Source: a virus
Lineage: Duplodnaviria > Heunggongvirae > Uroviricota > Caudoviricetes
Direction: 5' to 3' (one strand)
Virus record (IMG/VR): IMGVR_UViG_2925914267_000005
Coordinates: 1 to 20,458 of that record
DNA length: 20,458 bases
A program made the position numbers and the translations under genes. Under the pieces are notes generated by a model. That model ran no database searches. It was not told where the DNA came from and saw only the letters and a list, made by a program, of their open reading frames with translations. How positions within the stretch are numbered: position 1 is the first letter of the stretch; every line of letters starts with the position of its first letter. Positions 91 through 15,647 of this stretch are shown here, in pieces.

Positions 91-260
91 TTAGTATAAA
101 AAAGCTGAATGAGAAACGTAAAATGATATAAATATCAATATATTAAATTAGATTTTGCATAAAAAACAGACTACATAATACTGTAAAACACAACATATGC
201 AGTCACTATGAATCAACTACTTAGATAGCATTAGTGACCTACAACAGAGCATTAGCGCAA
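91..260 (-). other. attR: Prophage attR (P-O-B' junction): 15-bp lambda att core at 91-105 plus lambda attP P arm (about 106-260)
   Basis: Reverse complement of 91-105 is GCTTTTTTATACTAA, followed outward by CTTGAGCGAAACGGG (attB B' side as recalled); reverse complement of 106-260 reads like the lambda P arm (…AGGTCACTAAT…GTTGATTCATAGTGACTGCATATGTTGTGTTTTACAGTATTATG…). Confidence 0.85.
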
Positions 261-418
261 GGTGATTTTTGTCTTCTTGCGCTAATTTTTTGCTAATCCC
301 ACCATTTCTCAAAGATCACAAAGGGGTATGGTTGGTCTGGATGGCTCACCTGATGCAGAAGTATGATTTTGTAGTGACATCATTACCTTAATAGCGAACA
401 TTTCCTTGCCGCCTCGCA

Positions 419-446
419 TTGACGCGAGGTCGCACGGAAGTATAAT
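419..446 (+). promoter_or_regulatory. Putative sigma70 promoter for the acyltransferase gene: -35 TTGACG (419-424), 16-bp spacer, -10 TATAAT (441-446); 6-bp inverted repeat cctcgc/gcgagg (412-417 and 424-429) flanks the -35
   Basis: Hexamers read directly; positioned about 30 bp upstream of the ATG at 479. Confidence 0.5.
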
Positions 447-478
447 TCGTAGTCTTTCTACGTAGTTTAGGGAACAAT

Positions 479-1561
479 ATGTCGTCTAATAATCGACTCC
501 ATTATCTTGATGGTATTCGTGGCTGGGCCGCAACTATTGTTGTCTTCGGGCACACCATGGGGGGCGTGATTGCAATTGACGCACCTAATTTTGTAAATCA
601 TCAATGGATGAGCTTTTTTACAAATGCTCATCTTGCTGTTTTGGTATTTTTTGTTTTATCAGGCTACGTCCTGAGCGTTAGCCAAATCTACTCATCAAAA
701 CGTAATACTGCGGTATCCACCGTTGCAAGATTATTCAGATTGGCTCTTCCGATTCTGTTCGTAAGCCTTGTCGCATATATCATGATGAGGTTAAACCTAT
801 TTTTCAATGTTCAAGCCGCTACTAATGACATATCGAAATCGTGGTTAGGGACATTTTTCAGGTTTGAGCCGTCACTACCTGGTGTATTTTCCTTTTCATT
901 TTTCGATGTATTTTTCGCTTATGATACTCCGACATCATACAACTCTTCATTATGGACCATGCCTATAGAAATGGCTGGGTCAATTCTAATTTATTCATAC
1001 ATAGCTATATTCAGAACTGAAAAATTCAACTGGATAATTTCTTCCATTTTAATAGTTTATTTCTATTTTTATAGCCCATTCATGTTCTGCTTTATGGTTG
1101 GGTATGTTCTGGCTGAACTGAAAAAAATTAACAACCTATACCTGAGTGGTAGAAATGAAATACCGTTGATATTTATTTTCTTTGCCATGATCTATCTGGA
1201 TACATACCATAGGCCGGTTGATGAGATTATTCAGGCGCTTGAGGCGGTAGTATTTGTTGTTGTAATATCTTACAGCAAAACTTTATCATCGCTGTTCTCA
1301 TCAAGAGCATCAAGATTTATGGGCAGGATTTCGTTTTCTCTATATCTAGTTCAGATACTGGTTATTTGCTCATGGTCTTCGTACATGAAGATTTTACTAT
1401 CAAACTCTGGTATTAATATAAATATTGCAGCCTCAATAAACCTCATATCATCCATGGCTTTGTGCATATTAACAGCAAGAGCCATGACTCCTATTGATGA
1501 ATTTAGTGTTAAACACTCCAAAACCATTGCTTTTAAATTATTAAATTTATGCTCTAGGTAA
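479..1561 (+). CDS. Integral-membrane acyltransferase family 3 protein, probable O-antigen/LPS O-acetyltransferase (prophage moron)
   Basis: 360-aa ORF; N-terminal motif LDGIRGWAATIVVFGHT typical of acyltransferase-3 family; multiple hydrophobic segments; markedly AT-rich relative to neighbours. Confidence 0.75.
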   Translation: MSSNNRLHYLDGIRGWAATIVVFGHTMGGVIAIDAPNFVNHQWMSFFTNAHLAVLVFFVLSGYVLSVSQIYSSKRNTAVSTVARLFRLALPILFVSLVAYIMMRLNLFFNVQAATNDISKSWLGTFFRFEPSLPGVFSFSFFDVFFAYDTPTSYNSSLWTMPIEMAGSILIYSYIAIFRTEKFNWIISSILIVYFYFYSPFMFCFMVGYVLAELKKINNLYLSGRNEIPLIFIFFAMIYLDTYHRPVDEIIQALEAVVFVVVISYSKTLSSLFSSRASRFMGRISFSLYLVQILVICSWSSYMKILLSNSGININIAASINLISSMALCILTARAMTPIDEFSVKHSKTIAFKLLNLCSR

Positions 1562-2174
1562 CCAAGTCGTCAAGATGCACTTTAAGCCCCATAAGGGGCT
1601 TTCCATTCGCTCAGGTCTATCGAATCCACCATCCTGGCATACTAAAATGTTAATCGATATGCCATCAATCACTTCTTTCTCTTCATCCATTTCTGCCACG
1701 TAAATTGCGGCAATCGTATGGACGCTTTTCCTCAATTGGTTCATTATTTTTCCGATATGTCACACCCCATATTTAGATTTCAACGTTATTAGATCACTCG
1801 CAAACTGTTCCTTCAGCATTGGATATTTAGCTTGCTAATGCTGCATGATTGCTTCCATCAGTTAAAGATGCAGAACTAAAAGCTAACGTAAGAAATGAAA
1901 CATTCTCTTGATATGCTTTACTTAAGCTTTTCAGCTCTTTTTTGTATAGATAAGCATTTATTGTTGATTCTGAAATAATTTTATACTCCAGCTACTGACA
2001 GAATTTACTATTTGATGAATTGTGTTTATCTCCTAATGAGTGCTTAACATTTTAATTCATTACAATTTCCTTATATTCAAGGTATTTTTCAAGATCTTGC
2101 TCACAACGGAATATTGATACTAATTGACTTTCATCATTAGTTGAAAGTTGGATGTATAGATTCATCAATAGTCC

Positions 2175-3329
2175 TTAAATAGTATACCCACTTACACCAA
2201 CAGTTAAGCTAGATACTGATGATGTTGTCCAAGTGAATGTATAATAAATTGTTTGAGGGTTCTGGATTAGAAGCTCATAGTAAAAATCGACGCCAGTAGA
2301 TCTACTTAAACCAGCATATGCCTGGAAATACCCTACATCCTGGGTATCAGAAGCAATTGAAGCAGCTGCATAACCATCACCTTCCCCTGTGTTACAAAAC
2401 ACATAACCAGTACAGGTTGCTGCGTTTTTCGGGATCGCGTTTGTAAGAGAAATTGGAGTATACCCACCTGGGTTGCTACTGGTTGACAGTACATCAACTC
2501 GCTGGGTAGCGAACTTTCTCCCTCTTTGGTACCCAATTTTTAACAGCGCCCCAGATGTTGTTCCCCACACCGATACCAAAGCGCTCGCCGTATATCCTGC
2601 TGGCATGTTTGCACCACCATATACCGTGGGAGCAATAATAGAAGTGACGTCCTGAGCAAGTAATGCCGAGGTATCTGTCGTCGGGTTATAAATCAGGTAA
2701 ATTGCAACCCAACCACTGGCTGGCGCACTACCAGTATCCATGCCACCCGCCCCAGTCGTGGTGAGATTGATGGTTTTGTTGACCGAGCTTAAACGGTACT
2801 GCTTACCAGATAATGACTCACCAACAATGACTTGATCAGCAGTGAACGTTGCTGATGCCGACGCTATTGCCACGCTCATTTTCTGGTTAACAGCCTGACC
2901 AACCACGCCGGTGAATGATTCTCGCATCTTGAGGTAATCACTTAGCGGCGACCACCCAGCTGAAGAAGTATTAGGGTCGTTTGTGTTGTTGTTGATAGTG
3001 CTGATATAAATCGTTGCGCCGTCATCACTGATGAGAACAGCTCCAAGAGGATACCCTCCAACCGCCGTTGAAAAATCTGAGTCAAAAGCATTAAGAGCGC
3101 CTGCGCTAGACCATCTGCAAAGGGAAGACAACTCATACAAGATTTGATTCATGTCCTGCCCTTTGGGAGGAAGGCCCCCGGCAGATTTCAAAATCATTGT
3201 TATTGGTGGGAATCCTAAATCGTAGGATGCTGTATTATCTCCAGCTGGAGTTGTCGGCAGAAGATCCTCTCTTTGACCATTTACTCCAAAAGGTTTTGGT
3301 TGTTTTTTGGGTGAGTCAGAGCGATTCAT
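2175..3329 (-). CDS. Phage tail fiber protein
   Basis: 384-aa ORF; N-terminal GFPPITMILKSAGGLPPKGQDMNQILYEL resembles tail-collar fibre domain; Ser/Thr/Gly-rich C-terminal region; last gene of the baseplate operon. Confidence 0.7.
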   Translation of the reverse strand: MNRSDSPKKQPKPFGVNGQREDLLPTTPAGDNTASYDLGFPPITMILKSAGGLPPKGQDMNQILYELSSLCRWSSAGALNAFDSDFSTAVGGYPLGAVLISDDGATIYISTINNNTNDPNTSSAGWSPLSDYLKMRESFTGVVGQAVNQKMSVAIASASATFTADQVIVGESLSGKQYRLSSVNKTINLTTTGAGGMDTGSAPASGWVAIYLIYNPTTDTSALLAQDVTSIIAPTVYGGANMPAGYTASALVSVWGTTSGALLKIGYQRGRKFATQRVDVLSTSSNPGGYTPISLTNAIPKNAATCTGYVFCNTGEGDGYAAASIASDTQDVGYFQAYAGLSRSTGVDFYYELLIQNPQTIYYTFTWTTSSVSSLTVGVSGYTI

Positions 3330-3331
3330 AC

Positions 3332-3970
3332 TTAATTCCTATAAAATGTGCCATCATTAAACGGGTAGGCGTCAGATGAAAAACCGAAATAAGGACTAAT
3401 AATTTTTCGAATATTTACCTGAACACCACTAGGAACTGGCATTACTTCATAATTTGTGAGAATAGATTCCTCGTATGGTGCAAGTTCAAACTCGAATGTT
3501 ATTCCAATGGTCATATCTCGATAATTCACACAGTATGCCCTTCCTCTTTGAAAAAATAATATCTTTAAAAACTTGTTGATTTCTGGAATCGTAGCAATAC
3601 TTATGTTCGTAAACGCTTTGCAAAATATGAGTGTTCTGTAAGCCTCGTCACTCAATCTAACATTTGTTGTCTCCTGTGCTCCTCCAAAAAAAGGAGAGTT
3701 GTTGAACGGAGCGGGGTAATTTGGTTCTGCATTATCAGCTTCACTGAATCCGAAGGAATTGGTCTCTATAGGTGAGTTAATATAGCGACTTATCCCTACT
3801 ATTTTCCCCCACATATCCAGGCCGAATGTATCACAGGTAGTCAAATCCCATACTTTTTTAATAAACTCATCAGTGAAATCATCAAGGCTAATTGCCTGAT
3901 TAAAGGTATCAATGATGGATAGTAATTTTTTGCTTGCAGAGTACTGGGTAAGAATTGTGTCCTCCCACAT
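3332..3970 (-). CDS. Phage tail/baseplate protein (P2 gpI / Mu gp48 position)
   Basis: 212-aa ORF between the baseplate J-like gene and the tail fiber gene, matching P2 V-W-J-I-H order; family assignment by position only. Confidence 0.45.
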   Translation of the reverse strand: MWEDTILTQYSASKKLLSIIDTFNQAISLDDFTDEFIKKVWDLTTCDTFGLDMWGKIVGISRYINSPIETNSFGFSEADNAEPNYPAPFNNSPFFGGAQETTNVRLSDEAYRTLIFCKAFTNISIATIPEINKFLKILFFQRGRAYCVNYRDMTIGITFEFELAPYEESILTNYEVMPVPSGVQVNIRKIISPYFGFSSDAYPFNDGTFYRN

Positions 3971-3980
3971 ACATTTCCCC

Positions 3981-5210
3981 CTACGATAATGTAACAGTGA
4001 TATCTGATTCCTGAATGGTTGGAACCTGGTCTATGCCCATAGTCACAGCCGGTCCGTATAGTGAACCATCGAGAGAAACTTCAAGAGACAAAATTCCAAC
4101 TGTATCAGGAGATATTGAAATAACAGGGGCATAGTATTTACCAGCATTTATCGTCGAACCAATTCGTGCCTTTCCAATACCCTCATATCCTCCATTGAAC
4201 ACAGTGACAATCATTTCCTTTACTTGTTTAGTAATATCACTTGGGGGATTTAGTGAAGCATCGACATTTACCTTAAAGTAAACCCGCGTAGGTGATGCCT
4301 TTTGCCATTGCATTACATAAGATGGATATGGCGGCATGTAATTAACGTTATCGTAAACAGTGAACGTTGTATTACCATTCATATTGGCCCCGGGGTTATA
4401 AGTATTGAATATTGACTCAGCAACATCCGTATCAGCCCCGCCATAAACACAAATATAAACAGAATGCGCAAGAATCGGGAAATTCGTTGTTCCTTTATTT
4501 ACTGTTTCTGCAGTTCTGTTTGACCATACGTAAGCATCAAGCACACCATCAGTCGCAAGTAACGCGGCTAATGTAGATGCGTCCTGATTTCGACTGTTTC
4601 TGGCAACTGATTGTCTCCGGCGAGTTTCAAAGGCGATCCGTGATTCAACATCAACACCAACGACTCCAGGGCTAGTATTATTTACAGCATCCCACCCGGA
4701 AACGGCTCGATAAATCTGGTTCAGTGAACCTGCGGCACACGGAATCGGCCCGGTTGTTGTGTTGACAAACTGCACATCAACAGAGCCTGATGAGGGTATT
4801 ACAGCATTATCAATTGACTGATATATATACCCGCTCGTATCCACAGCGGTACTCCCTGCTGGTATTGTTGTTCCAACCTGACCAATGCATGTTGCTGTAA
4901 CAACTGTCCCCTGAGCAGCGATCCGCTCCATAAAGTAAATCCGACCAATCCCGTCCTGGAATCTGCCGGTTGAAAAGTCAGGGTTAATTTGATTAAACAA
5001 ACAAAGAAGCTTGTCGTATTCCTGAGCGATAATTTCAGTGTCAGACTGGGCGATCTGCCCTTGCGGTGAACTCAGTGACTGACTTGCGCCACCGCCAAGG
5101 GCCGTTGACATGTCTGTAAGTCTTCCCGCCAATACATCTGCTATATCGGGGACTGAAAGACCGTTTTCAGTGATGGTTACATCAGGAACAGCCGTATTTA
5201 ATGTCGTCAT
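3981..5210 (-). CDS. Baseplate J-like protein (P2 gpJ / Mu gp47 family)
   Basis: 409-aa ORF; size, position and sequence character consistent with baseplate J family; start overlaps upstream gene by 4 nt. Confidence 0.65.
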   Translation of the reverse strand: MTTLNTAVPDVTITENGLSVPDIADVLAGRLTDMSTALGGGASQSLSSPQGQIAQSDTEIIAQEYDKLLCLFNQINPDFSTGRFQDGIGRIYFMERIAAQGTVVTATCIGQVGTTIPAGSTAVDTSGYIYQSIDNAVIPSSGSVDVQFVNTTTGPIPCAAGSLNQIYRAVSGWDAVNNTSPGVVGVDVESRIAFETRRRQSVARNSRNQDASTLAALLATDGVLDAYVWSNRTAETVNKGTTNFPILAHSVYICVYGGADTDVAESIFNTYNPGANMNGNTTFTVYDNVNYMPPYPSYVMQWQKASPTRVYFKVNVDASLNPPSDITKQVKEMIVTVFNGGYEGIGKARIGSTINAGKYYAPVISISPDTVGILSLEVSLDGSLYGPAVTMGIDQVPTIQESDITVTLS

Positions 5211-5566
5211 AAGGTGGCCTGTGCAATATTACCATTGATATCTGTAACGCGGATTGTCCCGCGAGTTGTGCGTGTATTCTTGTCAAAGAAAACTGACGCC
5301 AGAGCATCCTCAACAACGGGTAATTTGAGTGCTTCAGCCTGCATTTTCTGAGCAATAAAACCAGGAGATGGTCGCCTGCCAAGAACTTCTGCCTTCCATG
5401 GGATCCCAAGTGTATTGTCGTAATAACACTCTCCTGAAAACACCAGGCATGCACTGGCGACATCCTGAGCAACAGAATATGATTCTTCTGCGATCGCCAG
5501 ATTGCCATTTCCGTCAAGCGTCAAGTCCCACGTAGAAGTGTCCAGCTGCATAGTTCTGTATGTCAT
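5207..5566 (-). CDS. Small baseplate wedge protein (P2 gpW / Mu gp46-like)
   Basis: 119-aa ORF between the V-like and J-like genes; translational coupling at both ends. Confidence 0.5.
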   Translation of the reverse strand: MTYRTMQLDTSTWDLTLDGNGNLAIAEESYSVAQDVASACLVFSGECYYDNTLGIPWKAEVLGRRPSPGFIAQKMQAEALKLPVVEDALASVFFDKNTRTTRGTIRVTDINGNIAQATL

Positions 5567-6255
5567 GTCGGTTTATCCGTTGCATTGGAATTTATTGTTG
5601 ACCCACCACTTTGTATTCCTGAAACAGAATGTTTGTGATTGTTATAGTTGTCCCTTAAATTTTTAACAGTAGATGACTGTGAGTCTGCGTTATCCTGAAT
5701 ATCGCCACTAACTTTAAGTAAAGGCGTATTCATGTTGACTCCATCAGGAGCATCAATATTTAACGATGAGCATTTGATATTTAGTGGGTTAGGCGTGGTT
5801 ATATTTATTGCACCGTCAGCGAATTCAATGAATTGAGTAGGTGAAATGTTTAATACCCCACCAAGATAAATCGCATCCGATTTACTGTGTCGTCTTTTGC
5901 TTCCAGGTACTGATTCTTTACGATTTTTTCTTACCAGTGATGTGTCTTTGTCGCATACCGCAATCAGACCAATATCACCTGCCACAGGGTCCATAATTAC
6001 AGCGCTGTTTCCTCTCTGCAACCGCCATACGGGAAGATCATATAAAACCGAGTTGGAAATCATTTTTCCTGTACGGTCTGTTCTGGTTAGTAAAGGAAGA
6101 ACATCAACAACTAAATCTGGTGCTTCCCCTCTGACTTCCTGAACTTTCGCTAACTCAATGAAGAAATATCCAGACATCAGCATCTCAAAAATATATTCCT
6201 GAGATTGAGCCTCACTTACCTGAGCAGGCGTTGGAGTAAATAGTTGCTTATCCAT
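5563..6255 (-). CDS. Baseplate assembly/spike protein V-like
   Basis: Start chosen at the ATG (MDKQLFTP…) that overlaps the upstream stop as ATGGATAA; the longer ORF to 6348 would overlap the upstream gene by about 100 nt; motif PVWRLQRGNSAVIMDPVAGDIGLIAV fits gpV-like fold. Confidence 0.5.
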   Translation of the reverse strand: MDKQLFTPTPAQVSEAQSQEYIFEMLMSGYFFIELAKVQEVRGEAPDLVVDVLPLLTRTDRTGKMISNSVLYDLPVWRLQRGNSAVIMDPVAGDIGLIAVCDKDTSLVRKNRKESVPGSKRRHSKSDAIYLGGVLNISPTQFIEFADGAINITTPNPLNIKCSSLNIDAPDGVNMNTPLLKVSGDIQDNADSQSSTVKNLRDNYNNHKHSVSGIQSGGSTINSNATDKPT

Positions 6256-7129
6256 TATTCTGTTGCGCCTCTGCTCTTTGTTCCGCTGTTCTGGCGGCAA
6301 TACATATTGAGTGCCATGAACCATTTGGCATCCATGATGATAATTCATGCCGAACGGAGGTTAACTTATACCTTCCGCTTGCATGTGGTAGTTCTGTTTT
6401 GATATCCACATATCTTCCAATGCAAAGGAGAGATGAATATTGCGTCTGAAACATCAGCCCCCCATTTGAAAATACAGGATATCCAACAAGTCCGTATTCT
6501 CTGGATATAAACGGAATTACATCATCTCTGTTTTTTTCTGAAGGCCAGAACTCTACTTTTGCAGGTGGCGTAGCTGACATTGCCAGTCCATAATCTGAAC
6601 AGACTCTATAAAGTTGCTCAAAAACACTTCCTTCAAAATGCGGACTTCCTGATGTTGTCATCCCTTTTACATTATTAAACACAGCTTCATAACCTGCACT
6701 TGCACAAATGGATGAGATGACATCTTCAACACTTTGCGCCCCCTGTGCTGTAAACGGGCTTGCTGGCATGTTCTGCAAATCAACATTAGAAGAAGCTGTT
6801 ATCATCAGGCTGCTTTCAGGAGCAGAATTCATGTTTGCTATTGATGAAAGCATCGTGCCAGAGAAAACAAGAGAATCATCGGCAAATACTTCAACATTTA
6901 GCTTCTGCCCTTCTCCAATAATACCATCAGCCTTCCCTGATATATCAGCAAGCCTTTCAATTCCTAACCCGTAAAGAGATATATCAGCCTGAGCGCCTCC
7001 CCGACCGGTAACAAAGTTCAGGGATACTGTTGACTTAACATTTCTGATGGAGATTTTATTGTTCCCATTTTTATCAAATGCTGATGATTCATTCGTGAAG
7101 TCAAACCGAAGACTGTGATTTTTATACAA
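6248..7129 (-). CDS. Phage tail/baseplate protein (possible hub, Mu gp44 / P2 gpD position)
   Basis: ORF runs to 7237, but the ATG starts would overlap the upstream gene by at least 80 nt; an in-frame TTG at 7129 preceded by GAGGA (8-nt spacer) overlaps the upstream stop; start uncertain. Confidence 0.4.
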   Translation of the reverse strand: MYKNHSLRFDFTNESSAFDKNGNNKISIRNVKSTVSLNFVTGRGGAQADISLYGLGIERLADISGKADGIIGEGQKLNVEVFADDSLVFSGTMLSSIANMNSAPESSLMITASSNVDLQNMPASPFTAQGAQSVEDVISSICASAGYEAVFNNVKGMTTSGSPHFEGSVFEQLYRVCSDYGLAMSATPPAKVEFWPSEKNRDDVIPFISREYGLVGYPVFSNGGLMFQTQYSSLLCIGRYVDIKTELPHASGRYKLTSVRHELSSWMPNGSWHSICIAARTAEQRAEAQQNNG

Positions 7130-7424
7130 GCTCGTTTTCCTCGATGTAGTACAGCAAGTAACGGCTACCCAAGCCTTCCCATTGCGGATCCGATTCCCCA
7201 TCATTATCAATGAAAATAAGGTCTCCCTTAAATCCAAGGTAGGAATATCTTACCATCTTATTCCCATACAGACATGGAACGCCCTGCATAATTGGGACTT
7301 CATTAACAGTTAAATCCATGTACATAAAACTCTGTCGCTGAACAAGTTTTATATTACATTGCTGACCAGACAGACTTACCGAAATGGACTGAGATTTGCT
7401 GGGAAGAACAGATACTGTAATCAT
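7122..7424 (-). CDS. Hypothetical phage tail-module protein (100 aa)
   Basis: Intact ORF with an in-frame stop 9 nt upstream and an AAGG ribosome-binding site; first retained gene after the IS600-like element. Confidence 0.4.
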   Translation of the reverse strand: MITVSVLPSKSQSISVSLSGQQCNIKLVQRQSFMYMDLTVNEVPIMQGVPCLYGNKMVRYSYLGFKGDLIFIDNDGESDPQWEGLGSRYLLYYIEENELV

Positions 7425-7573
7425 GTACTCGCCTTAACTATATTTTTTGCAATATCTGCCGCTTTTTTTGTTGCGCTGTTTGTGACTTCGAGTATTGGTT
7501 TGGATACCGTGAGGTAGCCTGAGTTTAACGGACACTCCTTCCTGAAATAGAATGGCATCAGAAGGAGCTAATA

Positions 7574-7876
7574 ATGAGCAGAAAAACCCAACGTTACTCT
7601 AAAGAGTTCAAAGCCGAAGCTGTCAGAACGGTTCTTGAAAATCAACTTTCGATCAGTGAAGGCGCTTCCCGATTATCTCTTCCTGAAGGCACTTTAGGGC
7701 AATGGGTTACCGCCGCCAGAAAAGGGCTCGGTACTCCTGGTTCCCGCACGGTGGCTGAACTGGAATCTGAAATTCTGCAACTGCGTAAGGCGTTAAATGA
7801 AGCTCGCCTTGAGCGAGATATATTAAAAAAAGCAACAGCGTATTTTGCACAGGAGTCGCTGAAAAATACGCGTTAA
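7574..7876 (+). CDS. IS3-family transposase OrfA (helix-turn-helix)
   Basis: 100-aa ORF MSRKTQRYSKEFKAEAVR…; contains the frameshift window near its 3' end. Confidence 0.85.
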   Translation: MSRKTQRYSKEFKAEAVRTVLENQLSISEGASRLSLPEGTLGQWVTAARKGLGTPGSRTVAELESEILQLRKALNEARLERDILKKATAYFAQESLKNTR

Positions 7877-7911
7877 TCGAACAATGGCGACAACAATTTC
7901 CCATTGAAGCG

Positions 7912-8730
7912 ATGTGTCAGGTATTTGGTGTATCCAGGAGCGGTTATTACAACTGGGTACAGCATGAACCCTCAGACAGAAAACAAAGTGATGAGCGGCT
8001 AAAACTGGAGATTAAGGTGGCACATATCCGCACTCGCGAAACATATGGAACCCGGCGGCTCCAGACGGAGCTGGCAGAGAATGGCATCATCGTTGGTCGT
8101 GACCGACTGGCACGTCTTCGTAAGGAGCTAAGGCTACGCTGTAAGCAGAAACGCAAGTTCAGAGCGACTACGAACTCGAACCACAATCTGCCAGTTGCGC
8201 CAAATCTGCTGAACCAGACGTTCGCTCCTACAGCACCAAATCAGGTCTGGGTGGCGGACCTGACGTATGTTGCCACACAGGAGGGATGGTTGTACCTCGC
8301 TGGCATCAAAGATGTTTATACGTGCGAAATTGTCGGCTACGCCATGGGAGAGCGCATGACAAAAGAGCTGACAGGTAAAGCCCTGTTTATGGCGCTCAGG
8401 AGCCAGCGCCCACCTGCCGGGCTAATCCACCACTCTGATCGAGGTTCACAGTACTGCGCATACGATTACCGGGTCATACAGGAGCAGTTTGGTCTGAAAA
8501 CATCAATGTCGCGTAAAGGTAACTGTTACGACAACGCTCCGATGGAAAGCTTCTGGGGAACGCTGAAAAATGAGAGCCTGAGCCACTATCGTTTTAATAA
8601 CCGGGATGAAGCCATCTCAGTAATACGGGAATACATTGAGATTTTCTACAATCGTCAGCGTCGTCACTCTCGTCTGGGGAATATCTCCCCGGCAGCCTTC
8701 AGGGAAAAATATCATCAGATAGCTGCTTAA
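7912..8730 (+). CDS. IS3-family transposase OrfB (DDE catalytic domain), normally made as OrfAB fusion by -1 frameshift
   Basis: 272-aa ORF with integrase-core-like motifs (…HSDRGSQY…NAPMESFWGTLK…). Confidence 0.85.
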   Translation: MCQVFGVSRSGYYNWVQHEPSDRKQSDERLKLEIKVAHIRTRETYGTRRLQTELAENGIIVGRDRLARLRKELRLRCKQKRKFRATTNSNHNLPVAPNLLNQTFAPTAPNQVWVADLTYVATQEGWLYLAGIKDVYTCEIVGYAMGERMTKELTGKALFMALRSQRPPAGLIHHSDRGSQYCAYDYRVIQEQFGLKTSMSRKGNCYDNAPMESFWGTLKNESLSHYRFNNRDEAISVIREYIEIFYNRQRRHSRLGNISPAAFREKYHQIAA

Positions 8731-8994
8731 AAAAAGAACAAATGGTAGTGTCCGCTATTGCCAGTACACCTCAGGGAAATATGTCGATAAATGGGCAATA
8801 CGAACGACGGCAATGATTGCCAGAGAACTTGGTAAACAGAACAACAAGGCTGCCTGATGGTGGCCTTTATTTTTGGCATAAACAACAGAATAAACACTGC
8901 ACTGTGTATTCATTCCAACGAGTGAATACACGGAGCAATGTCGCTCGTAACTAAACAGGAGCCAACTTGTTCTGATTATTGGAAATCTTCTTTG

Positions 8995-9020
8995 CCCTCC
9001 AGTGTGAGGGCAATTTTTTT
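8995..9020 (+). terminator. Possible intrinsic terminator (ccctc-cagtgt-gaggg plus T8) just upstream of the coiled-coil gene
   Basis: 5-bp GC stem and T-run read directly; short stem, so weak. Confidence 0.3.
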
Positions 9021-9033
9021 TAACGGGGGAAAT

Positions 9034-10002
9034 ATGAGTGAAGTAACAGATTTAGTTGTTATTGAAAAAGCAAATGCAATGACTGTATTTCAGTCTGCCG
9101 ACCAGATTGAAGAAATCCTTCAAAAGGTTGAACGTGAAGTTATGTCCTTTGTGCCTGATATCACAACGGCAAAGGGCAGAAAGGAGATCGCTTCTCTGGC
9201 GTATAAAGTTGCGCAGACGAAAACATATCTCGATGGTCTTGGCAAAGACCTTGTTGCTGAACTGAAGGAAATTCCAAAGCTAATTGATGCTAACCGCAAG
9301 ACAGTGCGTGATCGCCTTGATGAGCTGAAAGCCAAGGCACGCCAGCCTCTTACTGATTATGAGGAAGAACAGGCGCGGATTAAAGCCGAAGAAGAAGCTA
9401 AGGCAGCAGCTGAAGCTCTCGCAAAGCAAATTGAGTCTGACCATGAAATAGCGATTTTGATGGATCGCGAATTTGACCGCCAAAGAGAAGAGGCAAGACT
9501 CAAAGCGGAGCAGGAAAAGCGAGAGCATGAAGAACGCTTAAAAAGAGAAGCTGAAGAGAAAGCCAGAGCTGAAGCCGAAGCAAAGGCAAAAGCCGAAATT
9601 GAAGCAGCAGCAAGGCGAGAAGCAGAAGCTAAGGCCGCAGCGGAACGTGCAGAGCGTGAACGCATTGAAGCCGAGCAACGAGCACAGCGCGAAGCAAAAG
9701 AGGCAGCAGAACGAGCTGAAAGAGAAAAGCAGGCAGCAATTGAAGCAGAACGCCGAAAAGCACAGGAGGAGGCAGAACGAATCCGGCGCGAGGCTGAAGC
9801 AAAAGAGCAAGCCAGAATAGCAGAAGAAAAAAGAATCAAGGACGAAGAAGAGCGTAGAGCAAAGGATAAAGCTCACCGGAGAGAAGTAAATAACAAAATA
9901 CTTGCTGACCTTATCAAGGTTGGCGCATCAGAAGATGTTGCTAAAAATATCATAATAGCCATCGCAAAAGGCGAAGTATTCGCAACAAAAATAACCTACT
10001 AA
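9034..10002 (+). CDS. Hypothetical phage early protein with long E/A/K/R-rich predicted coiled-coil region (TolA-domain-II-like composition)
   Basis: ATG at 9034 preceded by GGGGGA; ORF could extend upstream to 8938; central ~200 aa is low-complexity EAKAR-type; occupies the position of ea10/ral/sieB upstream of cIII. Confidence 0.6.
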   Translation: MSEVTDLVVIEKANAMTVFQSADQIEEILQKVEREVMSFVPDITTAKGRKEIASLAYKVAQTKTYLDGLGKDLVAELKEIPKLIDANRKTVRDRLDELKAKARQPLTDYEEEQARIKAEEEAKAAAEALAKQIESDHEIAILMDREFDRQREEARLKAEQEKREHEERLKREAEEKARAEAEAKAKAEIEAAARREAEAKAAAERAERERIEAEQRAQREAKEAAERAEREKQAAIEAERRKAQEEAERIRREAEAKEQARIAEEKRIKDEEERRAKDKAHRREVNNKILADLIKVGASEDVAKNIIIAIAKGEVFATKITY

Positions 10003-10026
10003 TAAAACCAACATAAGGAACCACCC

Positions 10027-10197
10027 ATGATTTACGCAATCGCGGGAGGCGCTCGCATGGGTGCCTTCCAACTAAATGAATCTTTACTTGAACGAATCAC
10101 CCGTAAATTACGTGACGGATGGAAACGACTTATCGACATACTTAATCAGCCAGGAGTCCCAAAAAATGGATCAAACACTTATGGCTATCCAGACTAA
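10027..10197 (+). CDS. cIII: Lambda-like CIII (FtsH/HflB inhibitor)
   Basis: 56-aa [59 protein letters not shown], near-identical over most of its length to lambda CIII as recalled; preceded by AAGGA. Confidence 0.85.
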   Translation: MIYAIAGGARMGAFQLNESLLERITRKLRDGWKRLIDILNQPGVPKNGSNTYGYPD

Positions 10198-10309
10198 ATT
10201 CACTATCGCCACTTTTATTGGCGATGAAAAGATGTTTCGTGAGGCCGTCGACGCTTATAAAAAATGGATATTAATACTGAAACTGAGATCAAGCAAAAGC
10301 ATTCACTAA
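10166..10309 (+). CDS. kil: Lambda Kil (FtsZ-ring inhibitor)
   Basis: 47-aa [50 protein letters not shown] matches lambda Kil as recalled; overlaps cIII 3' end. Confidence 0.85.
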
Positions 10310-10680
10310 CCCCCTTTCCTGTTTTCCTAATCAGCCCGGCATTTCGCGGGCGATATTTTCACAGCTATTTCAGGAGTTCAGCCATGAACGCTTATTACAT
10401 TCAGGATCGTCTTGAGGCTCAGAGCTGGACGCGTCACTACCAGCAGATCGCCCGTGAAGAGAAAGAGGCAGAACTGGCAGACGACATGGAAAAAGGCCTG
10501 CCCCAGCACCTGTTTGAATCGCTATGCATCGATCATTTGCAACGCCACGGGGCCAGCAAAAAAGCCATTACCCGTGCGTTCGATGACGATGTTGAGTTTC
10601 AGGAGCGCATGGCAGAACACATCCGGTACATGGTTGAAACTATTGCCCGCCACCAGGTTGATATTGATTCAGAGGTATAA
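10264..10680 (+). CDS. gam: Lambda Gam (RecBCD inhibitor); GamS internal start at 10383
   Basis: 138-aa [52 protein letters not shown]… near-identical to lambda Gam as recalled. Confidence 0.92.
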
Positions 10681-10685
10681 AACGG

Positions 10686-11471
10686 ATGAGTACAGCACTC
10701 GCAACGCTGGCAGGGAAGCTGGCTGAACGTGTCGGCATGGATTCTGTCGACCCACAGGAACTGATCACCACTCTTCGCCAGACAGCATTTAAAGGCGATG
10801 CCAGCGATGCGCAGTTCATCGCATTGCTGATCGTCGCCAACCAGTACGGCCTTAATCCGTGGACGAAAGAAATTTACGCCTTCCCTGATAAGCAGAACGG
10901 CATCGTTCCGGTGGTGGGCGTTGATGGCTGGTCCCGTATCATCAATGAAAACCAGCAGTTTGATGGCATGGACTTTGAGCAGGACAATGAATCCTGCACA
11001 TGCCGGATTTACCGCAAGGACCGTAATCATCCGATCTGCGTTACCGAGTGGATGGATGAATGCCGCCGCGAACCATTCAAAACCCGCGAAGGCAGAGAAA
11101 TCACGGGGCCGTGGCAGTCGCATCCCAAACGGATGTTACGGCATAAAGCCATGATTCAGTGTGCCCGTCTCGCCTTCGGATTTGCTGGTATCTATGACAA
11201 GGATGAAGCCGAGCGCATTGTCGAAAATACCGCATACACTGCAGAACGTCAGCCGGAACGCGACATCACTCCGGTTAACGATGAAACCATGCAGGAGATT
11301 AACACTCTGCTGATTGCCCTGGATAAAACATGGGATGACGACTTATTGCCGCTCTGTTCCCAAATATTTCGCCGCGACATTCGCGCATCGTCAGAACTGA
11401 CACAGGCCGAAGCAGTGAAAGCTCTTGGATTCCTGAAACAGAAAGCCACTGAGCAGAAGGTGGCAGCATGA
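10686..11471 (+). CDS. bet: Lambda Red beta (single-strand annealing protein)
   Basis: 261-aa [41 protein letters not shown]… near-identical to lambda Bet as recalled. Confidence 0.95.
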
Positions 11472-12148
11472 CACCGGACATTATCCTGCAGCGTACCGGG
11501 ATCGACGTGAGAGCTGTCGAACAGGGGGATGATGCATGGCACAAATTACGGCTCGGCGTCATCACCGCTTCAGAAGTTCACAACGTGATAGCAAAGCCCC
11601 GATCAGGAAAGAAGTGGCCTGACATGAAAATGTCCTACTTCCACACCCTGCTGGCTGAGGTTTGCACCGGTGTGGCTCCGGAAGTTAACGCTAAAGCGCT
11701 GGCCTGGGGAAAACAGTACGAGAACGACGCCAGAACCCTGTTTGAGTTCACTTCCGGCGTAAATGTTATTGAATCCCCGATCATCTATCGCGACGAAAGT
11801 ATGCGCACCGCCTGCTCTCCCGATGGTTTATGCAGTGACGGCAATGGCCTTGAGCTGAAATGCCCGTTTACCTCCCGGGATTTCATGAAGTTCCGGCTCG
11901 GTGGTTTCGAGGCCATAAAGTCGGCTTACATGGCCCAGGTGCAGTACAGCATGTGGGTGACGCGAAAAGATGCCTGGTACTTTGCCAACTATGACCCGCG
12001 TATGAAGCGTGAAGGCCTGCATTATGTCGTGGTTGAGCGGGATGAAAAGTACATGGCGAGTTTTGACGAGATGGTGCCGGAGTTCATCGAAAAAATGGAC
12101 GAGGCACTGGCTGAAATTGGTTTTGTATTTGGGGAGCAATGGCGATGA
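11468..12148 (+). CDS. exo: Lambda exonuclease (Red alpha)
   Basis: 226-aa [68 protein letters not shown]… near-identical to lambda Exo as recalled; ATGA overlap with bet. Confidence 0.95.
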
Positions 12149-12327
12149 CGCATCCTCACGATAATATCCGGGTAGGCGCGATCACTTTCGTCTACTCCGT
12201 TACAAAGCGAGGCTGGGTATTTCCCGGCCTTTCTGTTATCCAAAATCCACTGAAAGCCCAGCGGCTGGCTGAGGAGATAAATAATAAACGAGGGGCTGTA
12301 TGCACAAAGCATCTCCCGTTGAGTTAA
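12145..12327 (+). CDS. Lambda orf60a-like hypothetical protein
   Basis: [56 protein letters not shown]…; ATG overlaps exo stop (ATGA); alternative ATG at 12139. Confidence 0.8.
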
Positions 12328-12491
12328 GAACGAGTATCGAGATGGCACATAGCCTCGCTCAAATTGGAGTCAGGTTTGTGCCAATACCAGTAGAAACAGA
12401 CGAAGAATTTCATACGTTAGCCACATCCCTTTCACAAAAGCTGGAAATGATGGTGGCGAAAGCAGAAGCAGATGAGAGAGACCAGGTATGA
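12300..12491 (+). CDS. Lambda orf63-like hypothetical protein
   Basis: 63-aa ORF in lambda order between orf60a and orf61. Confidence 0.75.
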   Translation: MHKASPVELRTSIEMAHSLAQIGVRFVPIPVETDEEFHTLATSLSQKLEMMVAKAEADERDQV

Positions 12492-12571
12492 CAACCACTG
12501 AATGCATTTTTCTGGCAGCGGGCTTCATATTCTGTGTGCTTATGCTTGCCGACATGGGACTTGTTCAATGA
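12488..12571 (+). CDS. Candidate 27-aa hydrophobic micro-protein (MTTTECIFLAAGFIFCVLMLADMGLVQ)
   Basis: Not in ORF track (too short); start ATG overlaps orf63 stop as ATGA and its stop overlaps orf61 start as ATGA; single predicted transmembrane helix. Confidence 0.35.
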   Translation: MTTTECIFLAAGFIFCVLMLADMGLVQ

Positions 12572-12783
12572 CACCTCAGCAAGAAAACGCCCTTCGCAGT
12601 ATTGCCCGTCAGGCTAATTATGAAATCAAAAAAGCCAGACAGCGGTTTCCGGATAAAAACGTCGATGACATTTGCCGTAGCGTACTGAAGAAGCACCGCG
12701 AAACGGTAACGCTGATGGGATTCACACCGACTCACTTAAGTCTGGCAATCGGTATGTTAAACGGCGTCTTTAAGGAACGGTGA
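12568..12783 (+). CDS. Lambda orf61-like hypothetical protein
   Basis: 71-aa ORF MTPQQENALRSIARQANYEIKKARQRFPDKNVDDICRSVLKKHRETVTLMGFTPTHLSLAIGMLNGVFKER matches lambda orf61 as recalled. Confidence 0.8.
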   Translation: MTPQQENALRSIARQANYEIKKARQRFPDKNVDDICRSVLKKHRETVTLMGFTPTHLSLAIGMLNGVFKER

Positions 12784-12804
12784 ACATGAAAAGCAAAATC
12801 ATCA

Positions 12805-12828
12805 GGGAGCTACAGGCTCCTTTTTTAT
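12805..12828 (+). terminator. Intrinsic terminator-like hairpin (ggagc-tacag-gctcc plus T6) after orf61
   Basis: Stem and T-run read directly. Confidence 0.5.
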
Positions 12829-12881
12829 TATTCGCATTCACCCTCAAGCGTATTAACCAACAATTCAGGGATTAATGAAAG

Positions 12882-13103
12882 ATGGCGGACATCATTGATT
12901 CAGCATCAGAAATTGAAGAATTACAGCGCAATACAGCAATAAAAATGCGCCGCCTGAACCACCAGGCTATATCTGCCACTCATTGTTGTGAGTGTGGCGA
13001 TCCCATAGATGAGCGAAGACGCCTGGCCGTTCAGGGTTGTCGGACTTGTGCAAGTTGCCAGGAAGTTCTGGAGCTTATCAGTAAACAGAGAGGTTCGAAG
13101 TGA
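12882..13103 (+). CDS. TraR/DksA-family C4-type zinc finger protein
   Basis: 73-aa ORF with CxxC…CxxC (CCECGDPIDERRRLAVQGCRTCASC) characteristic of phage/plasmid TraR-like proteins. Confidence 0.7.
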   Translation: MADIIDSASEIEELQRNTAIKMRRLNHQAISATHCCECGDPIDERRRLAVQGCRTCASCQEVLELISKQRGSK

Positions 13104-13471
13104 GCGAAATTAACTCTCAGGCACTGCGTGAAGCGGCAGAGCAGGCAATGCATGACAACTGGGGATTTGACGCGGACCTTTTCCATGAGCTGGTAACACC
13201 ATCGATTGTGCTGGCACTGCTGGATGAACGGGAAAGAAACCAGCAATACATCAAACGCCGCGACAAGGAGAACGAGGATATTGCACTAACGGTAGGGAGG
13301 CTGCGCGTTGAGCTGGAAGGCAAACACAGGCGCATTACTGAGCTGACAATGTGGATTAAGCGACTGAGTTCCTCTCTCAAAAACGCAAAACCAGACAGCA
13401 AGTTGCCGGATGACGCAATGATCTGGCTAAATAATGAAGGGCTTACCAGTATAGAGGATATTTTACGATGA
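13100..13471 (+). CDS. Ea22-like protein (N-terminal region resembles lambda Ea22)
   Basis: MSEINSQALREAAEQAMHDNWGFDADLFHELVTPSIVL…ERERNQQYIKRRD… matches recalled lambda Ea22 N-terminus, C-terminal part diverges. Confidence 0.65.
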   Translation: MSEINSQALREAAEQAMHDNWGFDADLFHELVTPSIVLALLDERERNQQYIKRRDKENEDIALTVGRLRVELEGKHRRITELTMWIKRLSSSLKNAKPDSKLPDDAMIWLNNEGLTSIEDILR

Positions 13472-14006
13472 GCACTTTTACCATGGAATGGCTACAAAAT
13501 ACGATTACCAGTATTGAGTCAGCACGAGATGAAATGCCATTCGGACTCGATAACGATCAAGCACACATGCTTACAGCATTTAAAATCGCTCTCGCCTCAC
13601 TGGAACGCGAGCGGGTTCGCCACGAGCATGCCAAATGGTCTGACTCCACATTTGGCTGCGTTGGCCCCATTGGTCCACTGAAACACCTCTCAAAAGAGGC
13701 TCTGGAAGCCGCAGCCGAACCTGACGATCTCAGCGAGTGGGCTGATATGCAGTTCCTGTTGTGGGATGCACAGCGCCGTGCTGGCATCAGCGATGCTGAA
13801 ATTAACGTTGCTATGGAAGATAAATTGAAGATCAACATGGAGCGCCAGTGGCCTGAGCCAAAAGATGGTGAGCCTCGCTTGCACATTAAAGAACCCGGCA
13901 ACTCTCCGATAATTCCGGATGGTTTACCCACGGTATGCGCTGAGGCTTATCAGGTTGTAGGAGTTATGGCAGATGCGCTTGGTGTATTCGGTGATGCAGC
14001 AGTACA
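13468..14006 (+). pseudogene. 5' fragment of a phage gene interrupted by the IS629-like element
   Basis: ORF continues in-frame across the IS if the IS and one ACA copy are removed (…GDAAV|QKVLDNL…). Confidence 0.7.
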
Positions 14007-14060
14007 TGAACCGCCCCGGGAATCCTGGAGACTAAACTCCCTGAGAAAGAGGTAAACAGG

Positions 14061-14387
14061 ATGACTAAAAATACTCGTTTTTCCCCCGAAGTCCGTCAGA
14101 GGGCGATTCGTATGGTTCTGGAAAGTCAGGGCGAATATGACTCACAGTGGGAGGCAATTTGTTCCATTGCCCCAAAGATTGGCTGTACACCGGAGACTCT
14201 GCGTGTCTGGGTACGCCAGCATGAGCGGGATACCGGAGGCGGTGATGGCGGGCTCACCACCGCTGAACGTCAGCGTCTGAAAGAGCTGGAACGTGAAAAT
14301 CGTGAACTGCGCCGCAGTAACGATATCCTTCGCCAGGCTTCCGCTTATTTTGCGAAGGCGGAGTTCGACCGCCTCTGGAAAAAGTGA
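14061..14387 (+). CDS. IS3-family transposase OrfA
   Basis: 108-aa [29 protein letters not shown]…. Confidence 0.88.
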
Positions 14388-15274: not shown

Positions 15275-15319
15275 GTTCACAGATAAAACACTCTCCAGGA
15301 AACCCGGGGCGGTTCAACA

Positions 15320-15581: not shown

Positions 15582-15647
15582 AATGATGCTTGGCCTGAAG
15601 TATTTTATGTAATTGGTATTGCTATATTTTTATCTGGGGATAAACGA

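What the first reader, a model, noticed from the sequence alone, without database searches (positions are those of the whole stretch)
419..1561. AT-rich acyltransferase moron with near-consensus promoter beside attR: candidate lysogenic-conversion gene
A 360-aa multi-pass acyltransferase-3 family protein is encoded convergently to the tail fibre gene, right next to the att site where serotype-converting phages carry O-antigen modification genes. It has its own TTGACG-16-TATAAT promoter and is much more AT-rich than the lambda-like DNA. O-acetylation of surface polysaccharide could alter serotype and block receptor recognition by other phages.
Basis: partly seen in the sequence, partly recalled or inferred. 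Interest (0 to 1): 0.6.

Follow-up and report, generated by a model that had tools for sequence, protein, structure and literature searches.

The report
Prophage-borne surface-sugar acyltransferase gene
An intact membrane acyltransferase gene with its own strong promoter sits at the edge of a decayed lambda-type prophage in E. coli, in the slot where sister prophages carry O-antigen-modifying genes, so it is very probably an ordinary, though uncharacterised, surface-sugar "conversion" gene.

Summary
ORF 479-1561 (+) encodes a 360-aa full-length acyltransferase-3 (AT3, PF01757) protein. All three family motifs are intact and the model is confident, with a transmembrane-acyltransferase fold. TTGACG-16-TATAAT (419-446) is the only 11/12 promoter match in the window. 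The gene is 36.5% GC against 46.8% for the rest of the prophage. It lies 374 nt from the lambda attR core and is convergent with a tail-fibre gene.

New context:
- The window holds a whole 19-kb IS-truncated prophage remnant (attR 91-105, attL 19114-19128).
- Its tail module is myovirus-type, not lambda-like.
- A 2.8-kb cassette (AT3, spacer, distal 252 aa of the fibre) recurs at 99% identity in a prophage with an unrelated Mu-like baseplate.
- Homologues of 31-70% identity in three other genera sit at the same prophage-end position.
- In six sister E. coli prophages with the same baseplate, the slot holds gtrA-gtrB plus a third gene, another acetyltransferase, an esterase, or nothing.

Best reading: a lysogenic-conversion moron that most likely O-acetylates the O-antigen or another surface glycan. 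The substrate is unproven. It is a new member of a known kind and of modest interest.

The parts
91..105 (.). attR core (reverse complement of the lambda att core GCTTTTTTATACTAA). DNA to its left (1-90) is the chromosomal ybhB-side flank.
   Evidence: There are two exact copies in the window against 0 expected. Positions 1-292 match lambda lysogens at 98.3%. In loci L001-L004, ybhB ends directly left of this point.
106..292 (.). Lambda P arm and sib/tI region.
   Evidence: Positions 250-292 are 100% identical to lambda 27537-27579. The HK022 and HK97 records annotate this stretch as the sib processing/retroregulation site. The match to lambda lysogens ends at 292.
160..2926 (.). Mobile cassette: upstream region, AT3 gene, AT-rich spacer and the distal 252 codons of the tail fibre. 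It is shared between prophages with unrelated baseplates.
   Evidence: 99.3% nucleotide identity to L007, a prophage with a Mu-like baseplate at a different chromosomal site; nothing else in the window matches L007. Fibre residues 133-384 are 99% identical and the N-termini are unrelated.
402..439 (.). Imperfect 38-nt palindrome centred on the -35 hexamer. It could be an operator or a read-through barrier; its function is unknown.
   Evidence: Folds at -21.9 kcal/mol with z = -5.4; 0 of 200 shuffles fold as well.
419..446 (+). Sigma-70-type promoter TTGACG-16-TATAAT.
   Evidence: 11/12 match. It is the only site of this quality in the window, and P = 0.003 for the 180 nt upstream of the start.
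469..473 (+). Shine-Dalgarno-like AGGGA, 5 nt before the ATG.
   Evidence: Read directly from the sequence.
479..1561 (+). AT3-only membrane acyltransferase gene, 360 aa.
1584..1601 (+). GC-rich 7-bp hairpin 23 nt after the stop codon. It is a possible intrinsic terminator with a weak U tract.
   Evidence: Folding result. The terminator scan did not call it.
1562..2174 (.). AT-rich spacer (34.7% GC) with two small minus-strand ORFs (1547-1744, 65 aa; 2052-2168, 38 aa) of unknown significance.
   Evidence: ORFs listed. No hit in Pfam, PHROGs or PADLOC. No tail-fibre-assembly remnant was found. No DNA match in the phage collection. GC.
2175..3329 (-). Tail-fibre gene, 384 aa. Residues 1-132 form the baseplate-attachment part and 133-384 the distal part.
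   Evidence: PHROG tail-fibre families. tblastn finds tail fibres of Burkholderia, Pseudomonas and Yersinia phages at 40-57% identity. Sister E. coli prophages share only the first ~66-94 codons.
3332..7424 (-). Contractile-tail baseplate genes (wedge, Baseplate_J, sheath initiator, hub, plug), cut off by IS600.
   Evidence: Pfam and PHROG assignments.
7499..8774 (+). IS600, which joins the truncated tail module to the truncated ral/early region.
   Evidence: 99.5% identity to elements annotated as IS600. Colinearity with the full-length prophages ends at 7510.
19114..19128 (.). attL core, which follows int (17970-19040) and precedes ybhC (19175-20458).
   Evidence: int/xis/exo/bet/gam match lambda at 97.5%.

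Best explanation
The gene is a lysogenic-conversion 'moron'. It is a stand-alone AT3 membrane acyltransferase carried at the attR end of a lambdoid prophage and transcribed from its own sigma-70 promoter, independently of phage regulation. In this window the immunity region is deleted anyway.

Shown: the protein has the complete AT3 domain, the three family motifs and a transmembrane-acyltransferase fold.

Inferred from the family mechanism (PMC9558356, PMC9833829): it binds acetyl-CoA from the cytoplasmic side through R14, H25 and the RLFR loop. It passes the acyl group through its pore and esterifies a sugar hydroxyl of an envelope polysaccharide at the periplasmic face.

Inferred from position and relatives: the acceptor is most probably the O-antigen repeat unit, and less probably another surface glycan.

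Inferred consequence: the acetyl group changes the epitope, giving a serotype factor. It also masks the receptor from phages that carry the co-inherited fibre tip, giving superinfection exclusion.
For: - Family membership: Pfam full-length hit and PHROG 'O-acetyltransferase'. Motifs R-X10-H, VxxFFxLSGY and RxxR are present and invariant in 38 homologues; they are defined in PMC9558356.
- Selection: dN/dS is 0.08 and 0.06 in the two pairs where dS is computable. In the other pairs pN is 0.24-0.34 against saturated synonymous sites.
- Expression signals: a unique 11/12 promoter placed 33 nt upstream of the ATG.
- Foreign composition: 36.5% GC here, and 33-34% in all orthologues whatever the host GC.
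- Slot logic: six sister prophages with the same baseplate (88-94% nucleotide identity) were inspected. In the same att-to-fibre slot one carries gtrA-gtrB plus a third gene at the same att-lambda site, one a hexapeptide acetyltransferase, one a GDSL esterase, and three nothing.
- Position: orthologues of 31-70% identity in Leminorella, Enterobacter (two) and Achromobacter sit at prophage ends, convergent to spike, fibre or assembly genes.
- Polysaccharide neighbours: more distant homologues lie among Wzm/Wzt, glycosyltransferase, deoxysugar and Wzy-type genes.
- Co-inheritance: the gene travels with the fibre's distal 252 residues at 99% identity into a prophage with an unrelated Mu-like baseplate.
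- Precedent: Sf6 has the same convergent tailspike/oac/int-att arrangement.
Against: - There is no experimental evidence of any kind.
- The protein is only 24% identical over 140 residues to Sf6 Oac. It matches no NCBIfam model and no close homologue in 50,697 phage records. No characterised enzyme can therefore lend it a substrate.
- AT3 enzymes act on many acceptors, including ECA, osmoregulated glucans, capsule and peptidoglycan (PMC9558356).
- The neighbouring receptor-binding protein is a fibre of unknown receptor, not an O-antigen-cleaving tailspike.
- The strong promoter is not conserved upstream of the orthologues.
- The terminator is weak.
- AT-rich acquired DNA is often H-NS-silenced in E. 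coli (general knowledge).
- Several alleles in the 90% cluster look disrupted: a frameshift near codon 106, a split at codon 65/66, a stop at codon 90, and N-terminal truncations that remove R14 or H25.
Confidence: 0.62

Rival explanations
1. The enzyme has the same mechanism but a different acceptor. It acylates enterobacterial common antigen, a capsule or K-antigen, colanic acid, LPS core or periplasmic glucans rather than the O-antigen. Alternatively it transfers an acyl group other than acetyl, such as succinyl, as OpgC does.
For: The AT3-only enzymes WecH (ECA), OpgC (glucans) and IcaC (PNAG) show how broad the family is (PMC9558356). The neighbouring fibre has no recognisable O-antigen-degrading domain. 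One 38%-identical homologue sits next to a WecG-type glycosyltransferase. The 63%-identical Duffyella homologue is chromosomal, with no phage genes nearby.
Against: There is no match to any NCBIfam model. The sister prophage at the same site carries a gtr operon, and gtr operons act on O-antigen. Two of the distant homologues inspected lie beside O-antigen-type export or polymerase genes, Wzm/Wzt and Wzy_C.
Confidence: 0.24
2. The gene is silent or decaying cargo. It is intact here only because the remnant is young. It is either not expressed (H-NS silencing, or the palindrome over the -35) or lacks its acceptor sugar in this host, so it gives no phenotype.
For: The prophage is a 19-kb IS-riddled remnant. 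Several independent disrupted alleles exist. The loci are 99% or more identical between strains, so conservation within E. coli says little. The gene is absent from all 5,426 complete RefSeq E. coli genomes.
Against: In the cluster, roughly 100 contigs carry the three full-length alleles and about 20 carry shortened forms, some of which may be contig-end artefacts. The family shows strong purifying selection. The promoter is near-consensus and correctly placed. All catalytic motifs are intact.
Confidence: 0.1
3. The enzyme O-acetylates peptidoglycan (OatA/PatA-like) or plays another envelope role, protecting the lysogen from lysozyme or from incoming phage lysins.
For: AT3 proteins include the peptidoglycan O-acetyltransferase OatA. 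WecH can feed acetyl groups to PatB (PMC9558356).
Against: There is no fused SGNH domain and no partner SGNH gene in the cassette. No PADLOC defence model matches. The positional analogues are glycan-modifying genes.
Confidence: 0.03

Closest known systems
Oac of Shigella phage Sf6 (O-antigen O-acetylase, AT3-only)
   Same: Both are single-domain AT3 proteins of similar size (333 versus 360 aa) with the same motifs aligned: D-x2-R...H, FFxxSGY, an arginine-rich loop and NxSLWTxPxE. Both genes are convergent with the receptor-binding protein gene and adjacent to the int/att region of a temperate phage.
   Different: Identity is only 24% over 140 residues, and Sf6 does not appear in tblastn even at E = 5. 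Sf6 has an endorhamnosidase tailspike, whereas this element has a fibre of unknown receptor. oac lies on the int side of attP, whereas this gene lies on the other side. The substrate here is unknown.
gtrABC O-antigen glucosylation operons of P22/SfV-type phages, and the gtrA-gtrB-plus-third-gene set in the sister prophage of E. coli FDAARGOS_1288
   Same: They occupy the same slot (att site, then conversion gene(s), then convergent tail-fibre genes), at the same ybhB/att-lambda site and in front of the same baseplate module. The position and expected role match: receptor and serotype modification.
   Different: The chemistry (glucosylation through a lipid carrier) and the proteins are different, and there are three genes rather than one. 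The two are analogous, not homologous.
Salmonella OafA / OafB (family II GtrC), AT3-SGNH O-antigen acetyltransferases
   Same: They share the AT3 fold and the essential R14/H25 motif at the same residue numbers, plus the RxxR motif (PMC9833829).
   Different: Those enzymes have an 11th helix and a fused periplasmic SGNH domain that performs the final transfer. This protein ends after the AT3 domain.
E. coli WecH (ECA O-acetyltransferase) and OpgC (glucan succinyltransferase)
   Same: They have the same AT3-only architecture and occur in the same species (PMC9558356).
   Different: They are core-genome housekeeping genes. The protein here matches no NCBIfam model, is prophage-borne, and is absent from all complete RefSeq E. 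coli genomes. No direct sequence comparison was run.
Human HGSNAT and yeast GWT1 (solved transmembrane acyltransferases, TmAT superfamily)
   Different: Sequence identity is 8-15%. They are eukaryotic and have different acceptors. No AT3 protein has a solved structure, and Foldseek against the PDB finds nothing at E <= 0.001.

Membership tests
Acyltransferase-3 (AT3, PF01757) | Full-length match to the family profile above the curated cut-off | tested here: met
   80.9 bits against a cut-off of 31, E = 1.2e-22, covering profile positions 2-325 of 326.
Acyltransferase-3 (AT3, PF01757) | R/K-X10-H motif in the first transmembrane helix | tested here: met
   R14-GWAATIVVFG-H25. Both residues are invariant in 38 homologues. 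The motif is defined in PMC9558356.
Acyltransferase-3 (AT3, PF01757) | V-X-X-F-F-X-(I/V/L)-S-G-(F/W/Y) motif | tested here: met
   V54-LVFFVLSGY-63. F58, S61 and G62 are invariant.
Acyltransferase-3 (AT3, PF01757) | RXXR motif in the first cytoplasmic loop | tested here: met
   R84-LF-R87. Both arginines are invariant.
Acyltransferase-3 (AT3, PF01757) | About ten transmembrane helices with the transmembrane-acyltransferase fold | tested here: met
Acyltransferase-3 (AT3, PF01757) | Acyl-CoA-dependent acylation of an extracytoplasmic carbohydrate | not testable with these tools
   This needs biochemistry, or NMR/mass spectrometry of envelope glycans.
Phage serotype-converting O-antigen acetyltransferases (Oac type) | AT3-only architecture encoded by a temperate phage | tested here: met
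   There is no SGNH or other domain. The gene lies inside a prophage bounded by att cores.
Phage serotype-converting O-antigen acetyltransferases (Oac type) | Located between the receptor-binding protein gene and the att/int region | tested here: met
   The gene is 374 nt from the attR core and convergent with the fibre gene. Sf6 has the equivalent layout.
Phage serotype-converting O-antigen acetyltransferases (Oac type) | Close sequence relationship to Oac, OacB, OacC or OacD | tested here: not met
   Identity to Sf6 Oac is 24% over 140 aa; hhalign probability is 96%, which shows common family membership only. No Shigella phage appears in tblastn at E <= 5. No Shigella protein is among the named hits of the best 120. 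OacB and OacC were not compared directly.
Phage serotype-converting O-antigen acetyltransferases (Oac type) | Demonstrated O-acetylation of the O-unit, with serotype change or phage resistance | not testable with these tools
   This needs LPS chemistry, serology and adsorption assays.
Phage moron (autonomous accessory gene) | Own promoter | tested here: met
   An 11/12 consensus match, unique in the window, with P = 0.003 in the upstream 180 nt. This is a sequence prediction only.
Phage moron (autonomous accessory gene) | Own terminator | tested here: inconclusive
   A 7-bp GC hairpin at 1584-1601 has a poor U tract. The terminator scan did not call it.
Phage moron (autonomous accessory gene) | Base composition distinct from neighbouring phage genes | tested here: met
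   36.5% GC against 46.8%.
Phage moron (autonomous accessory gene) | Present or absent among otherwise similar phages | tested here: met
   Twenty complete E. coli genomes carry the same baseplate module without this gene. Of six inspected, the slot is empty in three, including one at the same att-lambda site, and holds other cargo in three.

The most novel reading that the evidence does not exclude
The acyltransferase and the distal half of the tail fibre form a co-adapted 'bind-and-mask' cassette. The enzyme acylates exactly the surface epitope that the linked fibre tip recognises. The 2.8-kb pair moves as one unit between phages with unrelated baseplates and different integration sites. In the rare E. 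coli lineages that carry it, it creates a so far undescribed O-acetylated variant of an O-antigen or other glycan.
Probability: 0.35. Interest if true: 0.5.

Novelty: new member of a known kind. Interest (0 to 1): 0.33.

Why it matters
Phage-borne acetylation of surface sugars changes serotype, vaccine epitopes and phage susceptibility. This gene would add an uncharacterised AT3 subfamily to the small set of conversion genes known in E. coli.

Its tight co-inheritance with one fibre tip gives a simple testable pair: does the enzyme block the fibre that travels with it?

The sister prophages show that the att-to-fibre slot is a general docking place for alternative glycan-modifying cargo (gtr genes, two unrelated acetyltransferase types, an esterase). 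That helps when annotating prophages and predicting phage host range. None of this would surprise a specialist.

Tried and rejected
- **NCBIfam:** no model matched, so no curated functional name is available.
- **PADLOC:** no defence-system model matched the AT3 protein or either small ORF.
- **Phage collection:** megablast, blastn and tblastn found no close homologue. The best hit was a Pantoea phage at 28% identity.
- **Complete E. coli genomes:** neither megablast nor sensitive blastn found the cassette at window 293-2174.
- **Genome contigs with the single protein:** nothing confirmed. With the alignment it returned 80 loci at 41% identity or less from many phyla. A crude tblastn panel found only one with a phage-tail neighbour and 17 with possible polysaccharide neighbours. 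Most of those were ABC-ATPase hits that are not specific, so I give this little weight.
- **Structure searches:** Foldseek against the PDB and BFVD gave no useful hits. The AFDB library was unavailable. Sequence searches of the PDB were uninformative for both the enzyme and the fibre.
- **Spacer 1562-2174:** I looked for a degraded tail-fibre-assembly gene and found none.
- **Rfam:** no RNA family matched in 1-2400.
- **Tandem repeats:** none in the window.
- **Phase variation:** there is only one GATC upstream (position 314) and no repeat array. The A7 (1121) and G6 (559) runs do not coincide with the observed frameshift allele. I rejected a Dam/OxyR- or repeat-based switch for lack of evidence.
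- **Host identity:** I first suspected Shigella, because of the IS load and the absence from complete E. coli genomes. The sources name the carriers as E. coli, so I dropped that idea. CP170291 is not in the annotated collection.
Full report
**1. The observation**

The finding is accurate at its coordinates.
- ORF 479-1561 (+) encodes 360 aa. It matches Pfam PF01757 (acyltransferase-3, AT3) over essentially the whole profile, at E = 1.2e-22 and 80.9 bits against a cut-off of 31. It also matches PHROG 3333 'O-acetyltransferase'.
- TTGACG-16-TATAAT lies at 419-446. It is the only site with at least 11/12 consensus matches on either strand of the window. A site this good turns up in the 180 nt upstream of the start in 0.3% of shuffles. 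An AGGGA ribosome-binding motif sits 5 nt before the ATG.
- The ORF is 36.5% GC. The rest of the prophage is 46.8% and the lambda-like early region is 49.0%.
- The gene is convergent with a 384-aa tail-fibre gene at 2175-3329 (-).
- It lies 374 nt from the lambda att core at 91-105.

**2. What the window really is**

The att core occurs twice, at 91-105 and 19114-19128. The second copy follows int (17970-19040) and the P' arm, and precedes a 427-aa ORF at 19175-20458. I identify that ORF as ybhC from my own knowledge of the att-lambda region, not from a tool result. Positions 1-292 match lambda lysogens at 98.3%. The int-xis-exo-bet-gam region matches lambda at 97.5%.

So the window holds an entire prophage of only 19 kb at att-lambda.
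- The full-length versions in other E. coli assemblies are colinear with the window up to position 7510.
- At that point IS600 (7499-8774) joins a truncated baseplate module to a truncated ral/early region.
- No ORF for immunity, replication, lysis or head functions was found between the IS600 junction and int.
- A second IS3-family element, with an ALIL frameshift pseudoknot, sits at about 14007-15317.
- The tail genes (wedge, Baseplate_J, sheath initiator, hub, plug) are contractile-tail type, not lambda-like.

**3. The protein**

Three motifs characterise functional AT3 enzymes (PMC9558356). All three are present:
- R/K-X10-H in helix 1, here R14...H25.
- V-x-x-F-F-x-(I/V/L)-S-G-(F/W/Y), here V54-LVFFVLSGY-63.
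- RxxR, here R84-LF-R87.

R14, H25, F58, S61, G62, R84 and R87 are invariant in an alignment of 38 homologues down to 31% identity.

There is no SGNH domain, so this is an 'AT3-only' enzyme like Oac, WecH and OpgC.

The family is under purifying selection. Synonymous sites are saturated while pN is 0.19-0.33, and dN/dS is 0.06-0.08 in the two pairs where dS is computable.

**4. Distribution**

The exact protein is indexed in 212 blocks of public assemblies, and the sources name the carriers as E. coli. Yet the cassette is absent from all 5,426 complete RefSeq E. coli genomes, even with sensitive blastn, and from 50,697 phage records. It is therefore a rare accessory gene that no sequenced phage or characterised enzyme represents.

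Sf6 Oac is only 24% identical over 140 residues, with an hhalign probability of 96%. No NCBIfam model matches.

Some alleles in the 90% cluster are disrupted. There is a frameshift near codon 106, a split at codon 65/66, a stop at codon 90, and N-terminal truncations that lose R14 or H25. The three full-length alleles account for roughly 100 contigs and the shortened forms for about 20, some of which may be contig-end artefacts.

**5. Context evidence for function**

*a) The gene travels with the fibre tip.* A prophage at another chromosomal site (near yegE/ibsA), with an unrelated Mu-like baseplate (L007), shares with the window only positions 160-2926, at 99.3% identity. That stretch covers the upstream region, the AT3 gene, the spacer and the last 252 codons of the fibre. 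The fibre N-termini are unrelated.

*b) The position is conserved among relatives.* Homologues of 70% (Leminorella), 53% (two Enterobacter) and 31% (Achromobacter) identity all sit at a prophage end. All are convergent with a tailspike, fibre or fibre-assembly gene, and they use different integration sites. Their fibre tips differ from this one. One 63% homologue in Duffyella is chromosomal, with no phage genes nearby.

*c) Two more distant homologues lie in polysaccharide clusters.* At 37% and 42% identity they sit among Wzm/Wzt, glycosyltransferase, deoxysugar and Wzy-type genes.

*d) The slot is a cargo site in sister prophages.* Twenty complete E. coli genomes carry the same baseplate module at 88-94% nucleotide identity. 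Homology stops inside the fibre gene, and the AT3 cassette is missing. I inspected six of them:

| Strain | Integration site | Content of the att-to-fibre slot |
|---|---|---|
| FDAARGOS_1288 | same ybhB/att-lambda site | gtrA, gtrB and a 491-aa third gene |
| STEC299 | next to torT | hexapeptide-type 'serine acetyltransferase' |
| WS4437A-1 | next to purK | GDSL esterase |
| KCJ3K291 | next to dacD | empty |
| E423 | tRNA-Arg | empty |
| IGC_RcoliRes_1.1 | same att-lambda site | empty |

The gene therefore meets the presence/absence criterion of a moron. It also occupies a slot whose alternative cargo includes the classical O-antigen glucosylation genes. Sf6 shows the same logic, with a tailspike convergent to oac next to int and attP.

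**6. Mechanism**

*Shown:* an intact AT3-only enzyme gene with a strong predicted promoter, foreign composition, the prophage-end position, and co-inheritance with a fibre tip.

*Inferred from the family* (PMC9558356, PMC9833829): acetyl-CoA is bound from the cytoplasm by the basic residues and H25. The acyl group passes through the pore and is transferred to a sugar hydroxyl at the periplasmic face.

*Inferred from context:* the acceptor is a surface polysaccharide, most likely the O-antigen. The modification alters serotype and hinders adsorption of phages carrying the linked fibre tip.

I put 0.62 on this reading. The rivals are:
- another envelope glycan or another acyl group, 0.24;
- silent or decaying cargo, 0.10;
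- peptidoglycan or another role, 0.03.

Caveats:
- The substrate cannot be read from sequence at 24% identity to the nearest characterised enzyme.
- The fibre's receptor is unknown.
- The promoter is not conserved in the orthologues.
- The hairpin after the stop codon (1584-1601) is a weak terminator.
- AT-rich acquired genes are often H-NS-silenced (general knowledge).

**7. Verdict**

There are two corrections: the tail is myovirus-type, and the prophage is a 19-kb remnant.

This is a new, uncharacterised member of a well-known kind, a phage-borne AT3 glycan acyltransferase acting as a conversion moron. The most interesting extra is the 2.8-kb 'enzyme plus fibre tip' cassette shared between unrelated tail machines, together with the cargo slot that holds gtr genes, two kinds of acetyltransferase or an esterase in sister prophages.

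Interest is modest. It gives a clean experimental pair for testing receptor masking, but nothing that overturns expectations.

Noticed in passing
window 91-19128: The window contains a complete but defective 19-kb lambdoid prophage, from attR (core 91-105) to attL (core 19114-19128). It keeps int, xis, exo, bet, gam and part of a baseplate. No immunity, replication, lysis or head genes were found.
   Followed up: yes
window 7499-8774 and about 14007-15317: There are two IS3-family insertions. IS600 forms the deletion junction between the tail module and the ral region. An IS629-like element with an ALIL frameshift pseudoknot (Rfam RF01497, 14342-14458) lies in the early region. A related remnant (L009) has the IS629-like element at a different junction (window position 5262), which implies independent IS-mediated deletions.
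   Followed up: partly
window 402-439: A strong imperfect palindrome (-21.9 kcal/mol, z = -5.4) is centred on the -35 hexamer of the acyltransferase promoter. It could be an operator. It could also be a barrier to transcripts reading through from int/sib in the circular phage genome, where the gene lies directly downstream of int-attP-sib in the same orientation.
   Followed up: partly
window 1547-1744 (-) and 2052-2168 (-): Two small ORFs (65 and 38 aa) lie in the 613-bp AT-rich spacer between the acyltransferase and the fibre. They are conserved at 99% within the cassette and gene callers have called them in other assemblies. They have no family match. The 65-aa ORF spans the hairpin at 1584-1601 and overlaps the acyltransferase stop codon.
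   Followed up: partly
window 8938-10002 (+): A 354-aa ORF has extreme A-richness on the coding strand (AT skew up to 0.62). It encodes a Glu/Ala/Lys/Arg-rich, coiled-coil-like protein that matches only PHROGs of unknown function. It sits between the IS600 junction and gam.
   Followed up: no
window 16936-17025 (+): Rfam match to sRNA-Xcc1 (RF02221, 64.9 bits against a gathering score of 53), just upstream of an AntA/P22AR-type antirepressor-like ORF (17066-17689).
   Followed up: no
L105 (NZ_CP035822.1) 2881-3477; L103 (NZ_CP022279.1) 4044-4616; L102 (NZ_CP070007.1) 1766-4514: In sister prophages with the same baseplate, the att-to-fibre slot carries a GDSL-type esterase, a hexapeptide-type 'serine acetyltransferase', or gtrA-gtrB plus a 491-aa gene. 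This slot is a general docking site for glycan-modifying cargo. The esterase may be the counterpart (a deacetylase) of such acetylations.
   Followed up: partly
L015 7985-8003 and L016 7985-8003: In the Enterobacter orthologues an extended -10-like TGCTAAGAT or TGCTAATAT lies only about 2-4 nt before the annotated ATG. This suggests either a leaderless mRNA or a mis-set start codon. The E. coli near-consensus promoter is not conserved there.
   Followed up: no
L005 and L007, 9600-9682: Prophages carrying the same cassette are integrated next to ibsA/yegL. Homology to the window begins at window position 160, inside the lambda P arm. The distal P arm/sib segment is therefore shared between elements that appear to use different att sites.
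   Followed up: no
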